Shown one piece after another: positions 52,938 to 58,689 of a DNA stretch of 64,000 nt (its first letter is position 1; each line of letters begins with the position of its first letter). A model generated the notes under the pieces. The model was not told where the DNA came from. It did not search any database and saw nothing but the letters and a program-made list of their open reading frames with translations. The stretch comes from a virus, in IMG/VR virus record IMGVR_UViG_3300005253_000193, positions 32,001 to 96,000 of that record; one strand, written 5' to 3'. The translations under genes and the position numbers were made by a program.

Positions 52938-53939
52938 TCACATCTTGAAGGACGGAGCCTGCATCCACACCCCATCCTTGAACCAAGTATGGGTGGTGAC
53001 TAGGCTGATGTAATGAACCCGCGCCCCGTCGACGACGATCTGTCCAACGAACTGATCGTTCTTGATCGTGATGAGCACAACGTCGGGGAAGGTGGTAGAT
53101 GCTTCCTCCCGCTTCTCCGTGAATTCATCGTCCAGGAGGCCGATGATGATGTTTTTCGTGTCCTCCCGTTCCGCTTTGGAGACGGATTCAAGCGCATCCC
53201 CCAAGCCCCCCAGATTGTCGACTTTGGGGAGAGGACGACGCTGCGGCTCCTTGCCGATGCCCAGCTTGATTTGACGGACTGCTTCACTTCCATAGCACTC
53301 CCTGATGAGAGCTTCCCAAATCTCACGGAAGTACCGTCGGGAGGGGGAACGCTCAATGCCAACCAGCCGCCCACCGATGATGATAAGAGCCCCAACCTGT
53401 TTGGGCACACGCTCGAACTCGGCCACAAACAAGTCCAGTTCCTTTTGGAACTTGTCCATGAAGTCGATCAGGTCTCCAGGGCCGCTTAGTCCAGCCTCGG
53501 TCTTGAAGTTCCTGATGTTACCCCAGATGGCGGAGAAGTCGGGGTTGGCATTGGTGAGAGCTGCTTCCCTGAGGGACCAAGGGAGCAAGGAAAACTTGTG
53601 CTCACCACGCGGGATAGTTCCGCCTTGGGTTTCCTGGACACACAACGCATTGTCGAAGACTCGCCTGCCCTTGACGAAGCCACCCTTGCGGAGAGCATGA
53701 TCTTGAGCTCTCTCGCGGACGAGGTAGGCGGTTTGTGGCGGGACCAGGATCTCCTCGTCCGGGGACCTTGCGTCGATGTTCAGGTTTCCATAGGTGCTGT
53801 TATGAACCGTGGCCCCCTCAGGGCTGACAAATCTGTCATCCTCCAGGTCACTCAGCAGGGGAATGACCTGCATGATGCCGACGGTCTGCATCCGCCCAGG
53901 GGTGCATCCCCTGAGCATTTCGGAAATGTTGCGGGTCAT
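52938..53939 (-). CDS. ARPP-like (DUF6569/ARPP-1 or ARPP-2-like) protein
   Basis: 'MQVIPL', 'AQDHAL', 'CVQETQGG', 'FVAEFE.VP.QVGA', 'GIE..PS'; family recalled from memory. Confidence 0.55.
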   Translation of the reverse strand: MTRNISEMLRGCTPGRMQTVGIMQVIPLLSDLEDDRFVSPEGATVHNSTYGNLNIDARSPDEEILVPPQTAYLVRERAQDHALRKGGFVKGRRVFDNALCVQETQGGTIPRGEHKFSLLPWSLREAALTNANPDFSAIWGNIRNFKTEAGLSGPGDLIDFMDKFQKELDLFVAEFERVPKQVGALIIIGGRLVGIERSPSRRYFREIWEALIRECYGSEAVRQIKLGIGKEPQRRPLPKVDNLGGLGDALESVSKAEREDTKNIIIGLLDDEFTEKREEASTTFPDVVLITIKNDQFVGQIVVDGARVHYISLVTTHTWFKDGVWMQAPSFKM

Positions 53940-53960: not shown

Positions 53961-54128
53961 TTAATTCGCATCTGGCGCATCATCGTCGTCGCCGGTCAAC
54001 CAATTGAGCATGGCGACCAAACCATCTTCGTAACTCTTACCTTCGTAATGAGTTCCTTGGTCCTGGCCTTCATTTGCCCAATTCGCTACCCTATCGATCT
54101 CATCATCAGAGCGTTTGATGACACGCAT
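53961..54128 (-). CDS. 55-aa acidic protein (not in the ORF track)
   Basis: MRVIKRSDDEIDRVANWANEGQDQGTHYEGKSYEDGLVAMLNWLTGDDDDAPDAN; GGGAG SD; fills the gap in the operon. Confidence 0.7.
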   Translation of the reverse strand: MRVIKRSDDEIDRVANWANEGQDQGTHYEGKSYEDGLVAMLNWLTGDDDDAPDAN

Positions 54129-54140
54129 TTAACGTCTCCC

Positions 54141-55778
54141 CTATTCAAACCACCCAAGATCACCAAGCCGATGCTCCTTGATGGTGCTGGTGAGGATCAT
54201 GGTGATAGCTTTCTTGATGTCCGTATTGATGAACAACTTCAGGGCGGAACTCACCAAAGCTTCGGGGCTGACTACGGGTATGGCTGCGCTGACCCCACCA
54301 AGGACCCGGATACCCTCGGACTCGGCCCCTGTAACCGGCGAGACTTGGATCACAGGCGTATCTATGCCCATGTCCCTAACTCGCTCCAGGGTGTCGCCGA
54401 AGCGGCCAGCCGGGGCATTTTCGTAGCCGTCGGTAATGACGAAGACTGCATCGGGTTCGTGCTCCAGGAGACCAACCAAGGAAAGTGCCAGATTGGTATC
54501 ACCCTTGGGCTGAATAAGGGCACCCTGACCATTCCCTCCGACGTAGTGGACAGTGGACAGATTCGACGCTGCACGCAATACATCCTCGACTGCCAGAGCG
54601 ACGGCAATGGGATGAAGCTTTTGGGTCTTATGTCCATACATGGACGCCGATGCATCGACTATGATACCGACGTTCTCATAATGGAAGGGAAGCGTTTTGG
54701 CAACGTCCTCAGCCTTCTTGTCTAGGGCTTTCCTGATCTCAGCCGTCATGCCCATCTCGTAGGCGTAGATGTACAGCTTGACGGCATCATGCTTGAGAGG
54801 ATCGAAGGCAACCTCGACACCTTCCCGTTTGGCTTGGGCCTGTACGTTGATACGTTGCTTGGAAGACATCTGGTCCTTAGCCAGCTCAAGGACTTCCCCA
54901 CTTTTCACTTCCTTGTGGAACTGTCCACGGATTCCCTCCAGGACCTCTGGGGGAAGCCTTTCACCCTTGCTCAGATCATTACGCGCCTTGCGTACAGCCG
55001 CAATGATTGGAGCATCAGGATTTTCCGTTACATAGGGAACGGAAGATCCCAAGGCGTAGGCGATGGCCAAACGAGACTCGATGCCGGGGGAAGGAAAACC
55101 AGGAATATATCTGTAAACATTTTCCCTGATCAGTTTGGTCTCATCCGGCTCCCACTCCTGATAAGGGCGTTGAAGAATGGAGCGAATGACACCGGACAAC
55201 TTCTGGCCCCACACATGTCGGAGGATTGCCCCGTACTTGCGTCGATACCTGACTGCCCTCATTTCGAGGGAACCCACCGCCCCGGTATGGAGAAGGTGGC
55301 GGAGGATCAGCTTCCTCGTCCGCATGTTGTTGATCCTGGCCTGCCCAGCCATGACAAACGTCCTGAGCTGGCGCGGGACGGTGATCCCGTCGCACAGATA
55401 TTCCAGGAGATTCCGCTCCATCTCGGCGTGATGCTTTTTGGTGGTCTGAAGCATCCCTCCGCTGTGCTTATCCGAAAGCAGGCGAAGGATGCCTTGCTGC
55501 CTCGACCTGTCCATGACACCCGGCAGGGCCAAGACCGCACCATATAGGAGGCGGTCGTACAGGAACATCTTTTTGTGCGCCTCCAACTCGGCGGCTTCCT
55601 GTTCCTCCTTGGAGTTGTAGAAGGTCGCTCGGCCCTTGGCGGTGATCACGAAGTCCAGAAAGGACTCCAGGTCCTTTGAAAGACTGACGAACTGGCTGTT
55701 GGGAAGATGGATGGGAACCATAAGCTGGCTCCTGACGGCGGGCAGAGACGCGGACACTGCGGGGATGTTCTGGTTCAT
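54141..55778 (-). CDS. Helical N-terminal + vWA domain protein (Ro60/TROVE-like architecture)
   Basis: MIDAS motifs 'IVDASASM', 'GDTNL', 'ITDGYEN'; about 370-aa basic helical N-terminus; 545 aa, similar in size to Ro60/Rsr. Confidence 0.65.
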   Translation of the reverse strand: MNQNIPAVSASLPAVRSQLMVPIHLPNSQFVSLSKDLESFLDFVITAKGRATFYNSKEEQEAAELEAHKKMFLYDRLLYGAVLALPGVMDRSRQQGILRLLSDKHSGGMLQTTKKHHAEMERNLLEYLCDGITVPRQLRTFVMAGQARINNMRTRKLILRHLLHTGAVGSLEMRAVRYRRKYGAILRHVWGQKLSGVIRSILQRPYQEWEPDETKLIRENVYRYIPGFPSPGIESRLAIAYALGSSVPYVTENPDAPIIAAVRKARNDLSKGERLPPEVLEGIRGQFHKEVKSGEVLELAKDQMSSKQRINVQAQAKREGVEVAFDPLKHDAVKLYIYAYEMGMTAEIRKALDKKAEDVAKTLPFHYENVGIIVDASASMYGHKTQKLHPIAVALAVEDVLRAASNLSTVHYVGGNGQGALIQPKGDTNLALSLVGLLEHEPDAVFVITDGYENAPAGRFGDTLERVRDMGIDTPVIQVSPVTGAESEGIRVLGGVSAAIPVVSPEALVSSALKLFINTDIKKAITMILTSTIKEHRLGDLGWFE

Positions 55779-55804
55779 GGTCAGTTCCCTTTATCCAAAC
55801 AAGA

Positions 55805-55881
55805 GGCCCGGTAAGGTCGTTCGTCAGTTTTGCGTAGACACTCCTGAAGTGTATGCTGTACTGACAGACTAGTTCCGGGCC
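55805..55881 (-). ncRNA. Structured RNA unit 1 (Y-RNA-like stem with mini hairpin payload)
   Basis: GGCCCGG/CCGGGCC end stem, AACUAG/CCUUA internal loop, GUCAGU/ACUGAC stem, UACAG, hairpin ACAC-UUCAGGA-GUGU. Confidence 0.75.
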
Positions 55882-55904
55882 ACTTGGTCGTTCATTTTAT
55901 TACA

Positions 55905-55985
55905 GTCCGGTAAGGTTGTTCGTCGTGGTGCGTCATTGATCGACTTCAACGTCGAGGATGCTGTAACGGCGATCTAGTTCCGGAC
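55905..55985 (-). ncRNA. Structured RNA unit 2
   Basis: GUCCGG/CCGGAC end stem, same internal loop, CGCCGU/ACGACG stem (one mismatch), UACAG, hairpin UCGAC-GUUGAA-GUCGA, payload ends ACCA. Confidence 0.75.
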
Positions 55986-56010
55986 CTTTTTTAACAATTG
56001 GTTTAGGCGA

Positions 56011-56132
56011 GCCGGTAAGGATGTACGTTGTATTTGGTGGATGTGATTGGAATCGAACCAATTACACACTGATTGAAGTCAGTTGCTCTACCGAATGAGC
56101 TACATATCCTGTAACAACGTTCTAGTTCCGGC
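56011..56132 (-). ncRNA. Structured RNA unit 3 enclosing a complete tRNA-like cloverleaf
   Basis: GCCGG/CCGGC end stem, same internal loop, ACGUUGU/ACAACGU stem, UACAG. Confidence 0.8.
56035..56109 (-). tRNA. tRNA-like element (75 nt, encoded CCA) with non-canonical 6-nt anticodon loop CUUCAA
   Basis: GGATATG TA GCTC ATTCGGTA GAGC A ACTGA CTTCAA TCAGT GTGTA ATTGG TTCGATT CCAAT CACATCC A CCA. Confidence 0.85.
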
Positions 56133-56210
56133 CCTCCCAGCAACAAAGGAGTTGAAAATGGCGGGAGCCACTTCCATTGGGATGGTCTGCCAAAACCACC
56201 ACCAAAAATG

Positions 56211-56240
56211 ATACTACTACGCCCCCAAATGCTTTGGCAA
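56211..56240 (-). promoter_or_regulatory. Putative sigma70-like promoter for the RNA array/vWA operon
   Basis: TTGCCA-18 bp-TAGTAT on the minus strand, with a very AT-rich tract upstream (56245-56275). Confidence 0.45.
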
Positions 56241-56277
56241 CAGATTTTTTTAACTTAATTTATATACACTATAGTTC

Positions 56278-57714
56278 CTAATCCACATCTGACTTGGGGC
56301 ATACTTCTTCAAGTAGATCCCAGTAATCGCTCATCATCATATGGGAACTAAGAACAAACTGACCAAGTGTATAGTTCTGGGAAATCAGAATTGTAAAGTT
56401 ATCCATGTCGGTTCTTGCATTGGACACGAACAGGCGGGCCAAACCCATCCTTTTCTCTTGTGGTGACTGACTATATGTTATGACACAATCAACAGTTGCT
56501 ACCTTGGAAATGTCTTCCGCCGCATGTATGTCACGCACCTTGGATGATTTTACTCCTTCCTTGCTAGACTGAGAAGCCACCACGGCAGCAACATTTAATT
56601 CTACGGCCAGTCCCCTTATATCGACATAGATGTTCCCAAGGTCCCTCCGATAGTTTCGTGGGTCAATCTTCATGAGATCCGGATAATCAATGAGCAGCAG
56701 GTCTGGCCTCCACCCTTCTATTACACTAAGGAGGTCTAGGAATCCTCTCAACTCATTGACAGTTAGTTGTCCCGTTGGGAATTGCTTAACCAATAATTTC
56801 CTTTTTAAACGGTCTTCCCAGAAGTCCATTTCGTCCCTTATGTGCTTCTCAATTTCAGGGTCTTGAAGGGCTATATCTGGATTTATTTTCACACGTTCAA
56901 AGTCCAAGAACTCCCCGGTTCTGCTATCTTCCTTGAGAATTGTATTTACTATGGGTTCCCTTGAGCTTCCATATCTTTTGGGAATAGAGAATAGACTCTG
57001 AAAATACCTTCCCATAATTTTCTTTTCAGACATTTCCATGGTAACATGACAGACGCGCTTGCCTTGCAGCATGGCCATCTTTGCCAAATGCATCAGCCAC
57101 CAAGTTTTTCCTCTTTTCATGAAGGCTATAAGCAGAAGGATTTCCCCCGGCGACGGACCAAGCTCGTGGAAGTCAAGTTCCTTAATACCAGTAGCGATAG
57201 CTTGGCTGGAAGCATCCAGGAAGCTCAGACTCTTGTTCAGATCTGTGAACCAAGTACCGGGGGTAAACAAATCAGCTCTCGGCTTTGCTACCTTGGTGAG
57301 TATTTCCTCCACTTCGGTTAAGTTTTTGTCGTCTTCCTCCTGTAGCATTTCGCCAGCTTCAATAATACTGGCCTTGAGCCGCTGTCTTCTGATGAAGTCG
57401 TTGACACGATTGAGGGTATAGTCTGCCTGAACCGAGTCCTGGGATTCGTAAAGATTTTGTAGGATGAGATCGTAGGCTGCCGCCTTGCGTTCATTTTTTC
57501 CCTCAAGGATAGTATCAAATACAGTGGCAAGCTCTCCTTCAGGAGCTTTACCCTCGGTATCAAGGAAATCATATATCCCCGCCGCAACCTGTCTATATTC
57601 CCCCTCGAAGAGGGATAGTTCAACCGTATTGCGAATGATCTTCCCACTCTCATAGTCAAATGCGAGCAGGATGAGAAGGTTCTGCTGTAGTAGATTGCCT
57701 AGCCCGTCAGGCAT
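56278..57714 (-). CDS. dnaB: Replicative DnaB-like helicase
   Basis: 'IATGIKELD', Walker A 'AFMKRGKT', 'TMEM', 'IDYPDLM', 'ASQ', 'AEDISK'. Confidence 0.85.
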   Translation of the reverse strand: MPDGLGNLLQQNLLILLAFDYESGKIIRNTVELSLFEGEYRQVAAGIYDFLDTEGKAPEGELATVFDTILEGKNERKAAAYDLILQNLYESQDSVQADYTLNRVNDFIRRQRLKASIIEAGEMLQEEDDKNLTEVEEILTKVAKPRADLFTPGTWFTDLNKSLSFLDASSQAIATGIKELDFHELGPSPGEILLLIAFMKRGKTWWLMHLAKMAMLQGKRVCHVTMEMSEKKIMGRYFQSLFSIPKRYGSSREPIVNTILKEDSRTGEFLDFERVKINPDIALQDPEIEKHIRDEMDFWEDRLKRKLLVKQFPTGQLTVNELRGFLDLLSVIEGWRPDLLLIDYPDLMKIDPRNYRRDLGNIYVDIRGLAVELNVAAVVASQSSKEGVKSSKVRDIHAAEDISKVATVDCVITYSQSPQEKRMGLARLFVSNARTDMDNFTILISQNYTLGQFVLSSHMMMSDYWDLLEEVCPKSDVD

Positions 57715-58689
57715 TTACTCCCCCGAGTCGTCATAGAGTTGATCTATAAAGTCCTGAATTTTGTCTTTGCCGTGGTCTTCATCCGCTACCGCCTCGTTCC
57801 ACAGAGTATTATCTCTTATTTTCAGAATAGCATCCTTAATGAGGGCATTGATGACACCTGGGTCCAGAGCATCAAGCTCCCAAGAATCTGTTCCAAAATG
57901 ATCAACGTAGTTCTTGACTCTCTTATCGGCAAACTTCACATAATTGGGCGGCGGGTTATATCGGCTTATCTGACTAAAGTTGAGTCCAAGGCGACGAATA
58001 ATTGGAGCGTCATGAAGGAGTCCATCACCATCAAATTCAATTATAGTATAGGCAGTCTCCGATTTATAAAATTCTTTTATCTGATCGTAATCGTACCCGG
58101 TAAAGACCGCGAGCCTCTTCCAAAGATCCCAGGTCATGTCCAACCCCGAAGGATCGTGATCCCCAAGATGCAAAACAACGACCTTTTGCCCATCCTTTAT
58201 ATACTGGTTAAATCTCTGTCCGGCTTTCCACACTTCGGAAGCTGAGGGATACCCTCGACATGAAAAATAAGGGACATCCAACTGTACACAGATGCCTTCG
58301 ATAACACCCACCAACGCATCCTTCTCAATCCAAACTTCAATTCTGGTGGTCTGATTGGCCCATTTGTCGATAGCGTAACCACGGCGAGCAGACTCAAGAA
58401 TTTCCATTGGGTTGTCCCAGTGTTGGTTCTCCCTGACAAATCTGGTCCTATCCTCGAGGGAGGTCCAATTTATGAACCCAGCCATCCGAGCATTCTTGAT
58501 GATGTCTCCCAACTTGTTGTAGGATTCCTGGTCGTTTGGAAGAAGGTCCCTGGACACAAACTGATAGAAAAGCTGCCGCAGGGTCAGGATATATCCCTTT
58601 GCTTCATACTCATCAATGATATCTATAGCCTTCGCCACAACGCCAGCGGTTTTGGCTTGCGGCTTCCATTCCTTATAGGATATTTTCAT
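57715..58689 (-). CDS. TOPRIM protein resembling Topo VI-A/Spo11-like (DUF2399-like) family
   Basis: 'TLRQLFYQ', 'EVWIEKDAL', 'RGYPS', 'GDHDPSG', 'WELDAL'. Confidence 0.75.
   Translation of the reverse strand: MKISYKEWKPQAKTAGVVAKAIDIIDEYEAKGYILTLRQLFYQFVSRDLLPNDQESYNKLGDIIKNARMAGFINWTSLEDRTRFVRENQHWDNPMEILESARRGYAIDKWANQTTRIEVWIEKDALVGVIEGICVQLDVPYFSCRGYPSASEVWKAGQRFNQYIKDGQKVVVLHLGDHDPSGLDMTWDLWKRLAVFTGYDYDQIKEFYKSETAYTIIEFDGDGLLHDAPIIRRLGLNFSQISRYNPPPNYVKFADKRVKNYVDHFGTDSWELDALDPGVINALIKDAILKIRDNTLWNEAVADEDHGKDKIQDFIDQLYDDSGE

What the first reader, a model, noticed from the sequence alone, without database searches (positions are those of the whole stretch)
55805..56132. Covariation among the three repeats indicates selection on RNA structure
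The terminal stems differ but stay paired: GGCCCGG/CCGGGCC, GUCCGG/CCGGAC, GCCGG/CCGGC. The inner stems have different sequences yet pair: GUCAGU/ACUGAC, CGCCGU/ACGACG (one mismatch), ACGUUGU/ACAACGU. The unpaired elements AACUAG, CCUUA and UACAG are invariant. Units are 77, 81 and 122 nt, separated by 23-25 nt spacers. Invariant loops with covarying stems fit a protein-recognised RNA motif processed from one precursor.
Basis: seen in the sequence. Interest (0 to 1): 0.85.

Follow-up and report, generated by a model that had tools for sequence, protein, structure and literature searches.

The report
Y-RNA-like repeats beside diverged phage Ro60
Three tandem small RNAs in a 106-kb uncultured phage share one conserved stem "handle" with covarying base pairs, and they sit just upstream of a highly diverged structural relative of the RNA-binding ring protein Ro60, so they are most likely its partner (Y-like) RNAs in a branch of the Ro60/Y-RNA system for which I found no description.

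Summary
Three minus-strand units (55805-55881, 55904-55986, 56009-56134) share an outer stem, the unpaired AACUAG and CCUUA, an inner stem and UACAG. The stems differ between units but stay paired. Unit 3 carries a full tRNA look-alike with a 6-nt anticodon loop; units 1-2 carry hairpins.

A covariance model seeded on unit 3 plus 11 units from other phages finds the scaffold upstream of homologous genes, always on the gene strand. It gives 62 strong hits in viral loci and 42 in bacterial genomes that were not in the seed. Cells paired are 92-93% against 65-69% in shuffles, and 15-16 of the 16 scaffold pairs covary.

The gene 26 nt downstream (545 aa) has no Pfam, NCBIfam or PHROG match. Its model nevertheless aligns to Ro60 over 405 residues (Z 18.4). 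An ARPP-1 gene follows in nearly every locus.

Best reading: Y-RNA-like partner RNAs of a sequence-divergent Ro60-like protein. This is a new variant of a known kind. Protein binding, transcription and processing from one precursor are inferred, not shown.

This scan has reported the same module on other phage DNA in at least ten genomes, with the same reading.

The parts
56009..56134 (-). Unit 3: scaffold (outer stem GGGCCGG/CCGGCUC, AACUAG, inner stem, UACAG, CCUUA) enclosing a complete tRNA-like domain
   Evidence: Model R1 111.4 bits, full length 1-126; sequence read; fold z = -3.71
56035..56109 (-). tRNA-like domain of unit 3: 7-bp acceptor stem with one A.C mismatch, D and T arms, 5-bp anticodon stem with a 6-nt loop CUUCAA, encoded ACCA
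   Evidence: Rfam tRNA 58 bits, E 6e-12; ARAGORN 'tRNA-???, anticodon (tc)'
55904..55986 (-). Unit 2: same scaffold with a hairpin payload (5-bp stem, 6-nt loop GUUGAA)
   Evidence: R1 27.4 bits, E 2e-6 through the scaffold with a local end
55805..55881 (-). Unit 1: same scaffold with a short hairpin payload
   Evidence: R1 36.6 bits, E 1e-8 on the minus strand against 6 bits on the plus strand; fold z = -4.25
55882..55903 (-). A+U-rich spacer between units 2 and 1; candidate processing site (inferred)
   Evidence: Sequence; no RNA data
55987..56008 (-). A+U-rich spacer between units 3 and 2; candidate processing site (inferred)
   Evidence: Sequence; no RNA data
56211..56240 (-). Weak sigma-70-like promoter candidate upstream of the array (9 of 12 matches)
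   Evidence: 2 sites found against 1.0 expected in shuffles, so not beyond chance
54141..55778 (-). 545-aa Ro60-like gene (helical ring plus C-terminal vWA domain with an invariant D375-x-S377-x-S379 motif); starts 26 nt after unit 1
   Evidence: No Pfam/NCBIfam/PHROG hit; AF2 pLDDT 91; the 12 PDB hits with E <= 0.001 that Foldseek lists are all Ro60/TROVE; VIA-align Z 18.4, 405 residues, rmsd 4.3 to 1yvr; invariant columns
53961..54128 (-). 55-aa ORF between the two conserved genes; not conserved in related loci
   Evidence: PHROG 6680, unknown function, E 1.7e-4; no tblastn hit in the loci
52938..53939 (-). 333-aa ARPP-1 gene, the conserved downstream partner
   Evidence: Pfam PF20208 E 2.8e-21; a homolog lies downstream on the same strand in 77 of 80 viral loci and 64 of 75 genome loci

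Best explanation
The three repeats are minus-strand genes for small non-coding RNAs of the Y-RNA type. Each RNA pairs its 5' and 3' ends into a basal stem closed by a G-C pair. Next comes an asymmetric internal loop with conserved sequence (5' AACUAG, 3' CCUUA), then a second stem and a conserved UACAG junction. Together these form a constant handle that carries a variable payload: a hairpin in units 1 and 2, and a full tRNA mimic with a 6-nt anticodon loop in unit 3. Inferred steps: the handle is the binding site for the Ro60-like ring/vWA protein encoded 26 nt downstream; the RNAs are transcribed with or just ahead of that operon and cut apart in the A+U-rich spacers; the payloads recruit or decoy tRNA-binding factors to the particle; and ARPP-1, an uncharacterised enzyme-like protein, is a further partner. 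Shown here: the structure is under selection, it is strand-specific, it is linked to the Ro60-like and ARPP-1 genes in phages and bacteria, and the protein has the Ro60 fold.
For: Structure and covariation. Conserved unpaired nucleotides across 62 units (junction U 62/62, C 57, A 56, G 59; AAC after the closing G-C pair). The same scaffold lies upstream of homologous genes on the gene strand, with 62 full-length hits of at least 66 bits in viral loci and 42 hits of 57-104 bits in bacterial genomes; all 160 and 128 listed hits are on the + strand of the gene-oriented loci. Arrays of one to seven candidate units per locus, by a regex scan that includes some nested duplicates, mixing tRNA-like and short payloads. 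Protein: Foldseek E 1e-8 to 2e-4 to the Ro60 structures (12 rows); Z 18.4 over 405 residues, against about 10 for the best hits outside Ro60, which cover the vWA domain only; MIDAS-type D-x-S-x-S invariant. ARPP-1 is coupled in nearly all loci that are not truncated. Precedent: Y RNAs lie next to Ro60 on the same strand in more than 250 bacteria and phages and carry tRNA-like modules, and D. radiodurans Yrn1 has a 5-bp 'anticodon' stem with a 6-nt loop (PMC4201824); Thermus phage phiLo has two Y-like RNAs upstream of its Ro60 (PMC12135203). Ro-like with ARPP-1 co-fold: weak support, score 0.57 with best control 0.00. That mark was reached by 58 of 80 solved complexes and 2 of 110 mismatched pairs, but scores of 0.60 or less came from only 7 of those 80 and from both mismatches. 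The runs agree in at least 84% of contacts and partner pLDDT is at least 83.
Against: The protein does not match the TROVE HMM, in 0 of 42 family members and in no frame of the phage genome even at E 10. The RNAs match no Rfam Y RNA or YrlA model. The canonical Ro-binding motif GNCGAAN0-1G/CGAA is not present as such; the handle has G|AAC instead. The promoter candidate is no better than chance. Most family members have normal 7-nt anticodon loops (57 of 60), so some payloads could be released as working tRNAs.
Confidence: 0.7

Rival explanations
1. Caged tRNA precursors. The scaffold is a leader-trailer duplex that stores or regulates the release of phage tRNAs or mini-tRNAs by RNase P and RNase Z. 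The Ro-like protein would be a chaperone or quality-control factor for them rather than a stable partner.
For: Unit 3 has a complete cloverleaf with an encoded ACCA. 57 of 60 family payloads have 7-nt anticodon loops with U at the U33 position. Loci often lie in tRNA arrays. M. smegmatis YrlA is cut by RNase P and receives CCA (PMC4201824).
Against: The window's loop has 6 nt and cannot decode normally. Units 1 and 2 have no cloverleaf but keep the handle. An encoded CCA occurs in only 8 of 60 units, and there are 44 different loop sequences among 60. In bacterial members the acceptor stem is mostly absent (columns 30-33 are gaps in 32-38 of 42 rows). The sequence-conserved unpaired handle nucleotides are not needed for a simple leader-trailer duplex.
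Confidence: 0.12
2. Cis-acting leader. The units are structured 5'-UTR elements that regulate the downstream Ro-like/ARPP-1 operon, for example by sensing tRNA-binding factors, and are not stand-alone RNAs.
For: Unit 1 ends 26 nt before the start codon on the same strand. The only terminator-like site found on that strand lies upstream of unit 3, not between the array and the gene.
Against: In many loci the units lie 1-2 kb upstream, with other units or tRNA genes between them and the gene. Copy number varies from one to several candidate units per locus. Closed 5'/3' stems with variable payloads are the Y RNA pattern.
Confidence: 0.08
3. DNA-level element: inverted repeats acting as recombination, replication or packaging sites rather than RNA.
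For: The stems are palindromic around CCGG, and a DnaB-like helicase and a topoisomerase-like gene lie just upstream.
Against: The model scores 36.6 bits on the minus strand against 6 bits on the plus strand for unit 1. All family hits are on the gene strand. G.U exceeds A.C by 42 to 20 in the scaffold helices. A tRNA-like fold is embedded. The element follows the Ro-like gene into unrelated phages and bacterial chromosomes.
Confidence: 0.03

Closest known systems
Bacterial and phage Ro60 (Rsr) with Y RNAs: D. radiodurans Yrn1, Salmonella and M. smegmatis YrlA/YrlB, mycobacteriophage YrlA (Chen et al. 2014, PMC4201824)
   Same: Small RNAs lie next to the ring/vWA protein gene on the same strand, often several per locus. 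Their 5' and 3' ends pair into a basal stem with a conserved loop next to it. The apical module is variable and often mimics tRNA. Short paralogs without the full tRNA module exist (YrlB-like). As in Yrn1, the tRNA-like part is colinear and here has a 5-bp stem with a 6-nt 'anticodon' loop.
   Different: The protein has no detectable TROVE sequence signature. The RNAs do not hit Rfam Y_RNA or YrlA. The handle motif is G|AAC...UACAG...UUA rather than GNCGAAN0-1G. YrlA is a permuted tRNA mimic joined through the anticodon-stem side, whereas here the acceptor side joins the handle. The obligate neighbour is ARPP-1, not RtcB/RtcA.
Thermus phage phiLo Ro60 with Yrl1 and Yrl2 (PMC12135203; PDB 9KOP, 9L5Y)
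   Same: A phage-encoded Ro60-type protein with Y-like RNAs immediately upstream. It is a structural match to the model here (Z 15.1-15.4).
   Different: The phiLo protein was identified as a Ro60 homolog in a UniProt search, and its RNAs carry the CGAA motif in the bulge. The paper passages read here mention no tRNA mimic and no ARPP-1 partner.
ARPP domain systems (Iyer et al. 2022, PMC9503650)
   Same: The downstream gene is a clear ARPP-1 member (PF20208) with an invariant Cys, Gln and His.
   Different: That paper lists ARPP with ARG/rhodanese-phosphatase systems and with HIRAN, WYL or deacetylase partners. The passages found for 'ARPP' mention no Ro60-like or RNA-linked context.

Membership tests
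Y RNA (Rfam RF00019 Y_RNA, RF02553 YrlA) | Match to the curated covariance models | tested here: not met
   Only tRNA (RF00005) reaches its threshold in the window. No Y RNA or YrlA match even at E 10 in 55700-56300.
Y RNA (functional class) | 5' and 3' ends pair into a basal stem with an adjacent conserved internal loop, encoded next to the Ro60 gene on the same strand | tested here: met
   co-orientation with the gene in all 160 + 128 listed hits
Y RNA (functional class) | Canonical Ro-binding motif (GNCGAAN0-1G or CGAA in the bulged helix) | tested here: inconclusive
   The handle reads CCGG|AACUAG here and (C)GAG|AACU or GG|AAAC in relatives. It is similar in place and partly in letters, but it is not the published motif.
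Y RNA (functional class) | Bound by the Ro60 protein in vivo or in vitro | not testable with these tools
   Needs RIP, EMSA or a structure
Ro60 / TROVE (Pfam PF05731) | Match to the TROVE HMM | tested here: not met
   0 of 42 family members at E <= 1. No match in six frames of the phage genome at E <= 10, while the controls D. radiodurans and B. thetaiotaomicron ring.
Ro60 / TROVE (fold) | Helical-repeat ring followed by a vWA domain with a MIDAS motif | tested here: met
   pLDDT 91. The 12 listed Foldseek hits with E <= 0.001 are all Ro60. Z 18.4, 405 residues aligned, rmsd 4.3, spanning residues 35-520. D375, S377 and S379 are invariant.
Functional tRNA (unit 3 payload) | Cloverleaf matching the tRNA model | tested here: met
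   58 bits, E 6e-12
Functional tRNA (unit 3 payload) | 7-nt anticodon loop with a readable anticodon | tested here: not met
   6-nt loop CUUCAA; ARAGORN reports a 2-nt 'anticodon'
CRISPR array | Near-identical short repeats separated by unique spacers, with matches to repeat models | tested here: not met
   The units are 77-126 nt structured modules with diverged stems. The only CRISPR-DR matches are at E about 8 and lie outside the units.

The most novel reading that the evidence does not exclude
The handle is a modular display platform. Phages and bacteria mount swappable tRNA or anticodon-arm look-alikes on a Ro60-like ring that works with ARPP-1, a fold with no solved relative and an invariant Cys/Gln/His. 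Together they would form a previously unrecognised RNP that senses, decoys or repairs attacks on tRNA, for example by anticodon nucleases or RNA ADP-ribosylation. The fast-changing anticodon loops would record an arms race.
Probability: 0.25. Interest if true: 0.8.

Novelty: new variant of a known kind. Interest (0 to 1): 0.62.

Why it matters
Ro60/Y-RNA particles are conserved from bacteria to humans, yet their bacterial and phage roles are poorly understood. Earlier Y RNA searches covered only genomes annotated with a TROVE protein (PMC4201824). This family has 737 clusters at 50% identity in a 1.84-billion-protein library, is invisible to the TROVE HMM, and is found in large phages and in Planctomycetota, Myxococcota, Bacteroidota and Actinomycetota. 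It therefore extends the system. It brings a new, strongly covarying RNA handle, colinear tRNA mimics and an obligate enzyme-like partner (ARPP-1) whose function is unknown. It also gives a defined three-part module that can be reconstituted to ask what Y RNA payloads recruit.

Tried and rejected
- **Rfam:** at gathering and at E <= 10, nothing but tRNA and chance-level CRISPR-DR and plastid-UTR rows.
- **Sequence searches of the 545-aa protein:** Pfam, NCBIfam, PHROGs and a PDB sequence search (single protein and profile) gave nothing.
- **First motif search:** an exact search for GGAACTAG...CCTTACC in related loci found nothing. The handle is conserved in structure and in a few letters, not as a string.
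- **Second model hit in the phage genome:** the hit at genome 26810-26929 is an ordinary tRNA-Lys without the handle.
- **ARPP-1 fold:** Foldseek against the PDB gave no hit with E <= 0.001, and the wide VIA-align search gave a best Z of 4.6. No functional lead came from this.
- **Link to canonical TROVE by sequence:** the profile search lists only its best 150 of 737 hits, so the weak end could not be inspected for canonical TROVE proteins.
- **Short-payload model:** a MAFFT alignment of 17 short-payload units (A6) was too ragged at the 3' end to build a separate model. I used local-end matches to model R1 instead.

Full report
**What is there**

All neighbouring ORFs run on the minus strand. 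Read on that strand, window 56134-55805 holds three tandem units.
- Each unit starts with a G+C-rich stem ending in CCGG, followed by the unpaired AACUAG, a 7-9-bp second stem and the junction UACAG.
- A payload follows, then the 3' strand of the second stem, about four variable bases, CCUUA and the 3' strand of the outer stem.
- The stems of units 2 and 3 can be extended by one or two pairs, to 55904-55986 and 56009-56134.

The payload of unit 3 is a complete tRNA-like gene at 56035-56109 (Rfam tRNA 58 bits). It has a 7-bp acceptor stem with one A.C mismatch, an encoded ACCA and a 6-nt anticodon loop, which ARAGORN cannot assign. Units 1 and 2 carry short hairpins; the hairpin of unit 2 has a 5-bp stem and a 6-nt loop, like the anticodon arm of unit 3.

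**Is it more than chance?**

Within the window, 11 unit-pair comparisons at scaffold positions differ on both sides of a pair, and 10 of them remain paired. One outer-stem position reads C-G, U-A and G-C in the three units. Minus-strand fold energies lie 1.6-4.3 sd below dinucleotide shuffles.

The stronger test comes from relatives. I built a covariance model (R1: 126 positions, 36 pairs) from unit 3 and 11 units found upstream of homologous genes in nine IMG/VR loci.
- **Viral loci.** In 66 sources R1 finds 62 full-length matches of at least 66 bits. Ordinary tRNAs match only the inner part of the model.
- **Pair counts, viral set.** 91.9% of cells pair, against 64.6% in shuffles (0 of 500 as high) and 41-50% when partners are slid by 1-3 columns. 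All 7 outer-stem and all 9 inner-stem pairs show changes on both sides.
- **Independent set.** 42 units from bacterial genomes that were not in the seed give 92.8% against 69.0%, with 7 of 7 outer-stem and 8 of 9 inner-stem pairs covarying.
- **Caveat.** These alignments are fitted to the model, which favours pairing. The number of distinct pair types and the slid controls argue that the signal is real.
- **Units 1 and 2.** They match R1 through the scaffold alone, with the tRNA part skipped: 36.6 and 27.4 bits on the minus strand, against 6 bits for unit 1 on the plus strand.

**Strand, and RNA rather than DNA**

The tRNA-like domain, the flanking genes and every one of the 160 + 128 listed model hits are on the gene strand. 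In the scaffold helices G.U pairs outnumber A.C pairs by 42 to 20. No expression data could be obtained.

**Context**

The window is bases 32001-96000 of a 105,963-bp virus record that CheckV rates as complete.
- **Ro60-like gene.** A 545-aa ORF (54141-55778) starts 26 nt after unit 1. It has no Pfam, NCBIfam, PHROG or PDB-sequence match. It has hundreds of homologs at about 40% identity, a few of them labelled only 'VWA domain-containing protein'.
- **Its fold.** A confident model (pLDDT 91) has a helical domain followed by a vWA domain. The 12 PDB hits with E <= 0.001 that Foldseek lists are all Ro60/TROVE structures (E 1e-8 to 2e-4). VIA-align gives Z 18.4 over 405 residues spanning 35-520 against Xenopus Ro60, and Z 15 against Thermus phage phiLo Ro60. 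The next, unrelated rows (Z about 10) cover the vWA domain only. D375-x-S377-x-S379, a MIDAS-type motif, is invariant.
- **No TROVE signature.** The TROVE HMM matches none of 42 family members and no frame of the phage genome. The protein is therefore Ro60-like by fold but lies outside the sequence-defined family. A profile search finds 737 clusters at 50% identity.
- **ARPP-1.** Downstream lie a non-conserved 55-aa ORF and a 333-aa ARPP-1 protein (PF20208). An ARPP-1 homolog follows the Ro-like gene on the same strand in 77 of 80 viral loci and 64 of 75 genome loci. Most of the exceptions are contigs cut short after the gene.
- **What ARPP-1 is.** Its authors describe it as an uncharacterised, probably enzymatic domain with a conserved Cys and Gln (PMC9503650). 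Here Cys100, Gln79 and His81 are invariant, and the confident model (pLDDT 91.8) has no clear solved relative.
- **Co-fold.** A co-fold of the two proteins gave weak support only: 0.57 against 0.00 for the best control. That mark was reached by 58 of 80 solved complexes and 2 of 110 mismatched pairs, but scores of 0.60 or less came from only 7 of those 80 and from both mismatches. The runs agree in at least 84% of contacts and partner pLDDT is at least 83.

**Distribution**

The trio of scaffolded RNA(s), Ro-like gene and ARPP-1 occurs in large uncultured phages. It also occurs in chromosomes or MAGs of Pirellulaceae, Myxococcota, Saprospiraceae and Chitinophagales, and Yinghuangia and Streptomycetaceae, among others. 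A regex scan gives one to seven candidate units per locus (some are nested duplicates), mixing tRNA-like and short payloads. Anticodon loops of the tRNA-like payloads are very diverse: 44 different sequences in 60, and 57 of the 60 have 7 nt. An encoded CCA is rare (8 of 60). The window's 6-nt loop is an exception.

**Interpretation**

The anatomy is that of Y RNAs: a basal stem made from both ends, a conserved loop next to it, a variable and often tRNA-like effector module, several paralogs per locus, and a position next to and co-oriented with the Ro60 gene (PMC4201824; PMC12135203). I therefore read the three repeats as Y-like partner RNAs of the diverged Ro60-like protein, with the handle as the recognition element.

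It is not a member of the described RNA families. No Rfam model matches. The published GNCGAAN0-1G/CGAA motif is replaced by G|AAC...UACAG. The tRNA mimic is colinear, joined through the acceptor side as in D. radiodurans Yrn1 (which also has a 6-nt 'anticodon' loop), and is not permuted as in YrlA.

Binding, transcription from the weak promoter-like site at 56240-56211 (chance level), cutting in the A+U-rich spacers, and any role of the payloads or ARPP-1 in conflicts over tRNA are inferences.

**Rivals**

The rivals I considered are caged tRNA precursors, a cis-acting leader and a DNA-level element. None is excluded without RNA data. The DNA-level reading is the weakest, given the strand specificity and the embedded tRNA fold.

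**Earlier notes of this scan**

After I had reached this reading, the look-ups showed two things. The same module had also been reported and followed up on other phage DNA in at least ten genomes, with the same conclusion. I re-derived the main points independently here.

**Verdict**

This is a new variant of a known kind, the Ro60/Y-RNA particle.

Noticed in passing
L026 2108-2182, L037 2101-2175, L047 1879-1953, L059 1443-1515 (and other loci of the distant clade): In the clade whose Ro-like protein is about 27% identical, a plain tRNA-Met(CAU) gene without the handle sits right after the first scaffolded tRNA-like unit. This looks like a conserved neighbour.
   Followed up: no
window 56153-56176 (-): A 10-bp hairpin with a weak U tail lies between the promoter-like site and unit 3. 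It could be the terminator of the upstream DnaB-like gene or a leader hairpin.
   Followed up: no
genome G000 about 26.8-27.4 kb (L082 1524-2045), outside the window: The phage has three ordinary tRNA genes (Lys UUU, Thr UGU, Pro UGG) without the handle.
   Followed up: partly
alignment A8 (bacterial loci L085-L152): In most bacterial members the tRNA-like payload lacks an acceptor stem (columns 30-33 are gaps in 32-38 of 42 rows), so the inner handle stem takes its place. The window's unit 3, with a full 7-bp acceptor stem and ACCA, is the more tRNA-complete form.
   Followed up: partly
window 55825-55965 (-), payloads of units 1 and 2: Both payloads start with GCAU and end with ACGC followed by an A/C-rich tail, which resembles the acceptor end ...CCACCAAAU of unit 3. 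They look like tRNA units stripped to a short closing helix plus one hairpin.
   Followed up: partly
window 56278-58689 (-): Just upstream of the array lie a DnaB-like helicase (PHROG 19, E 4e-46) and a protein of PHROG 6247, annotated 'DNA topoisomerase' (E 1e-99). Of the 80 viral loci, only L002 has a homolog of the topoisomerase-like gene upstream.
   Followed up: no
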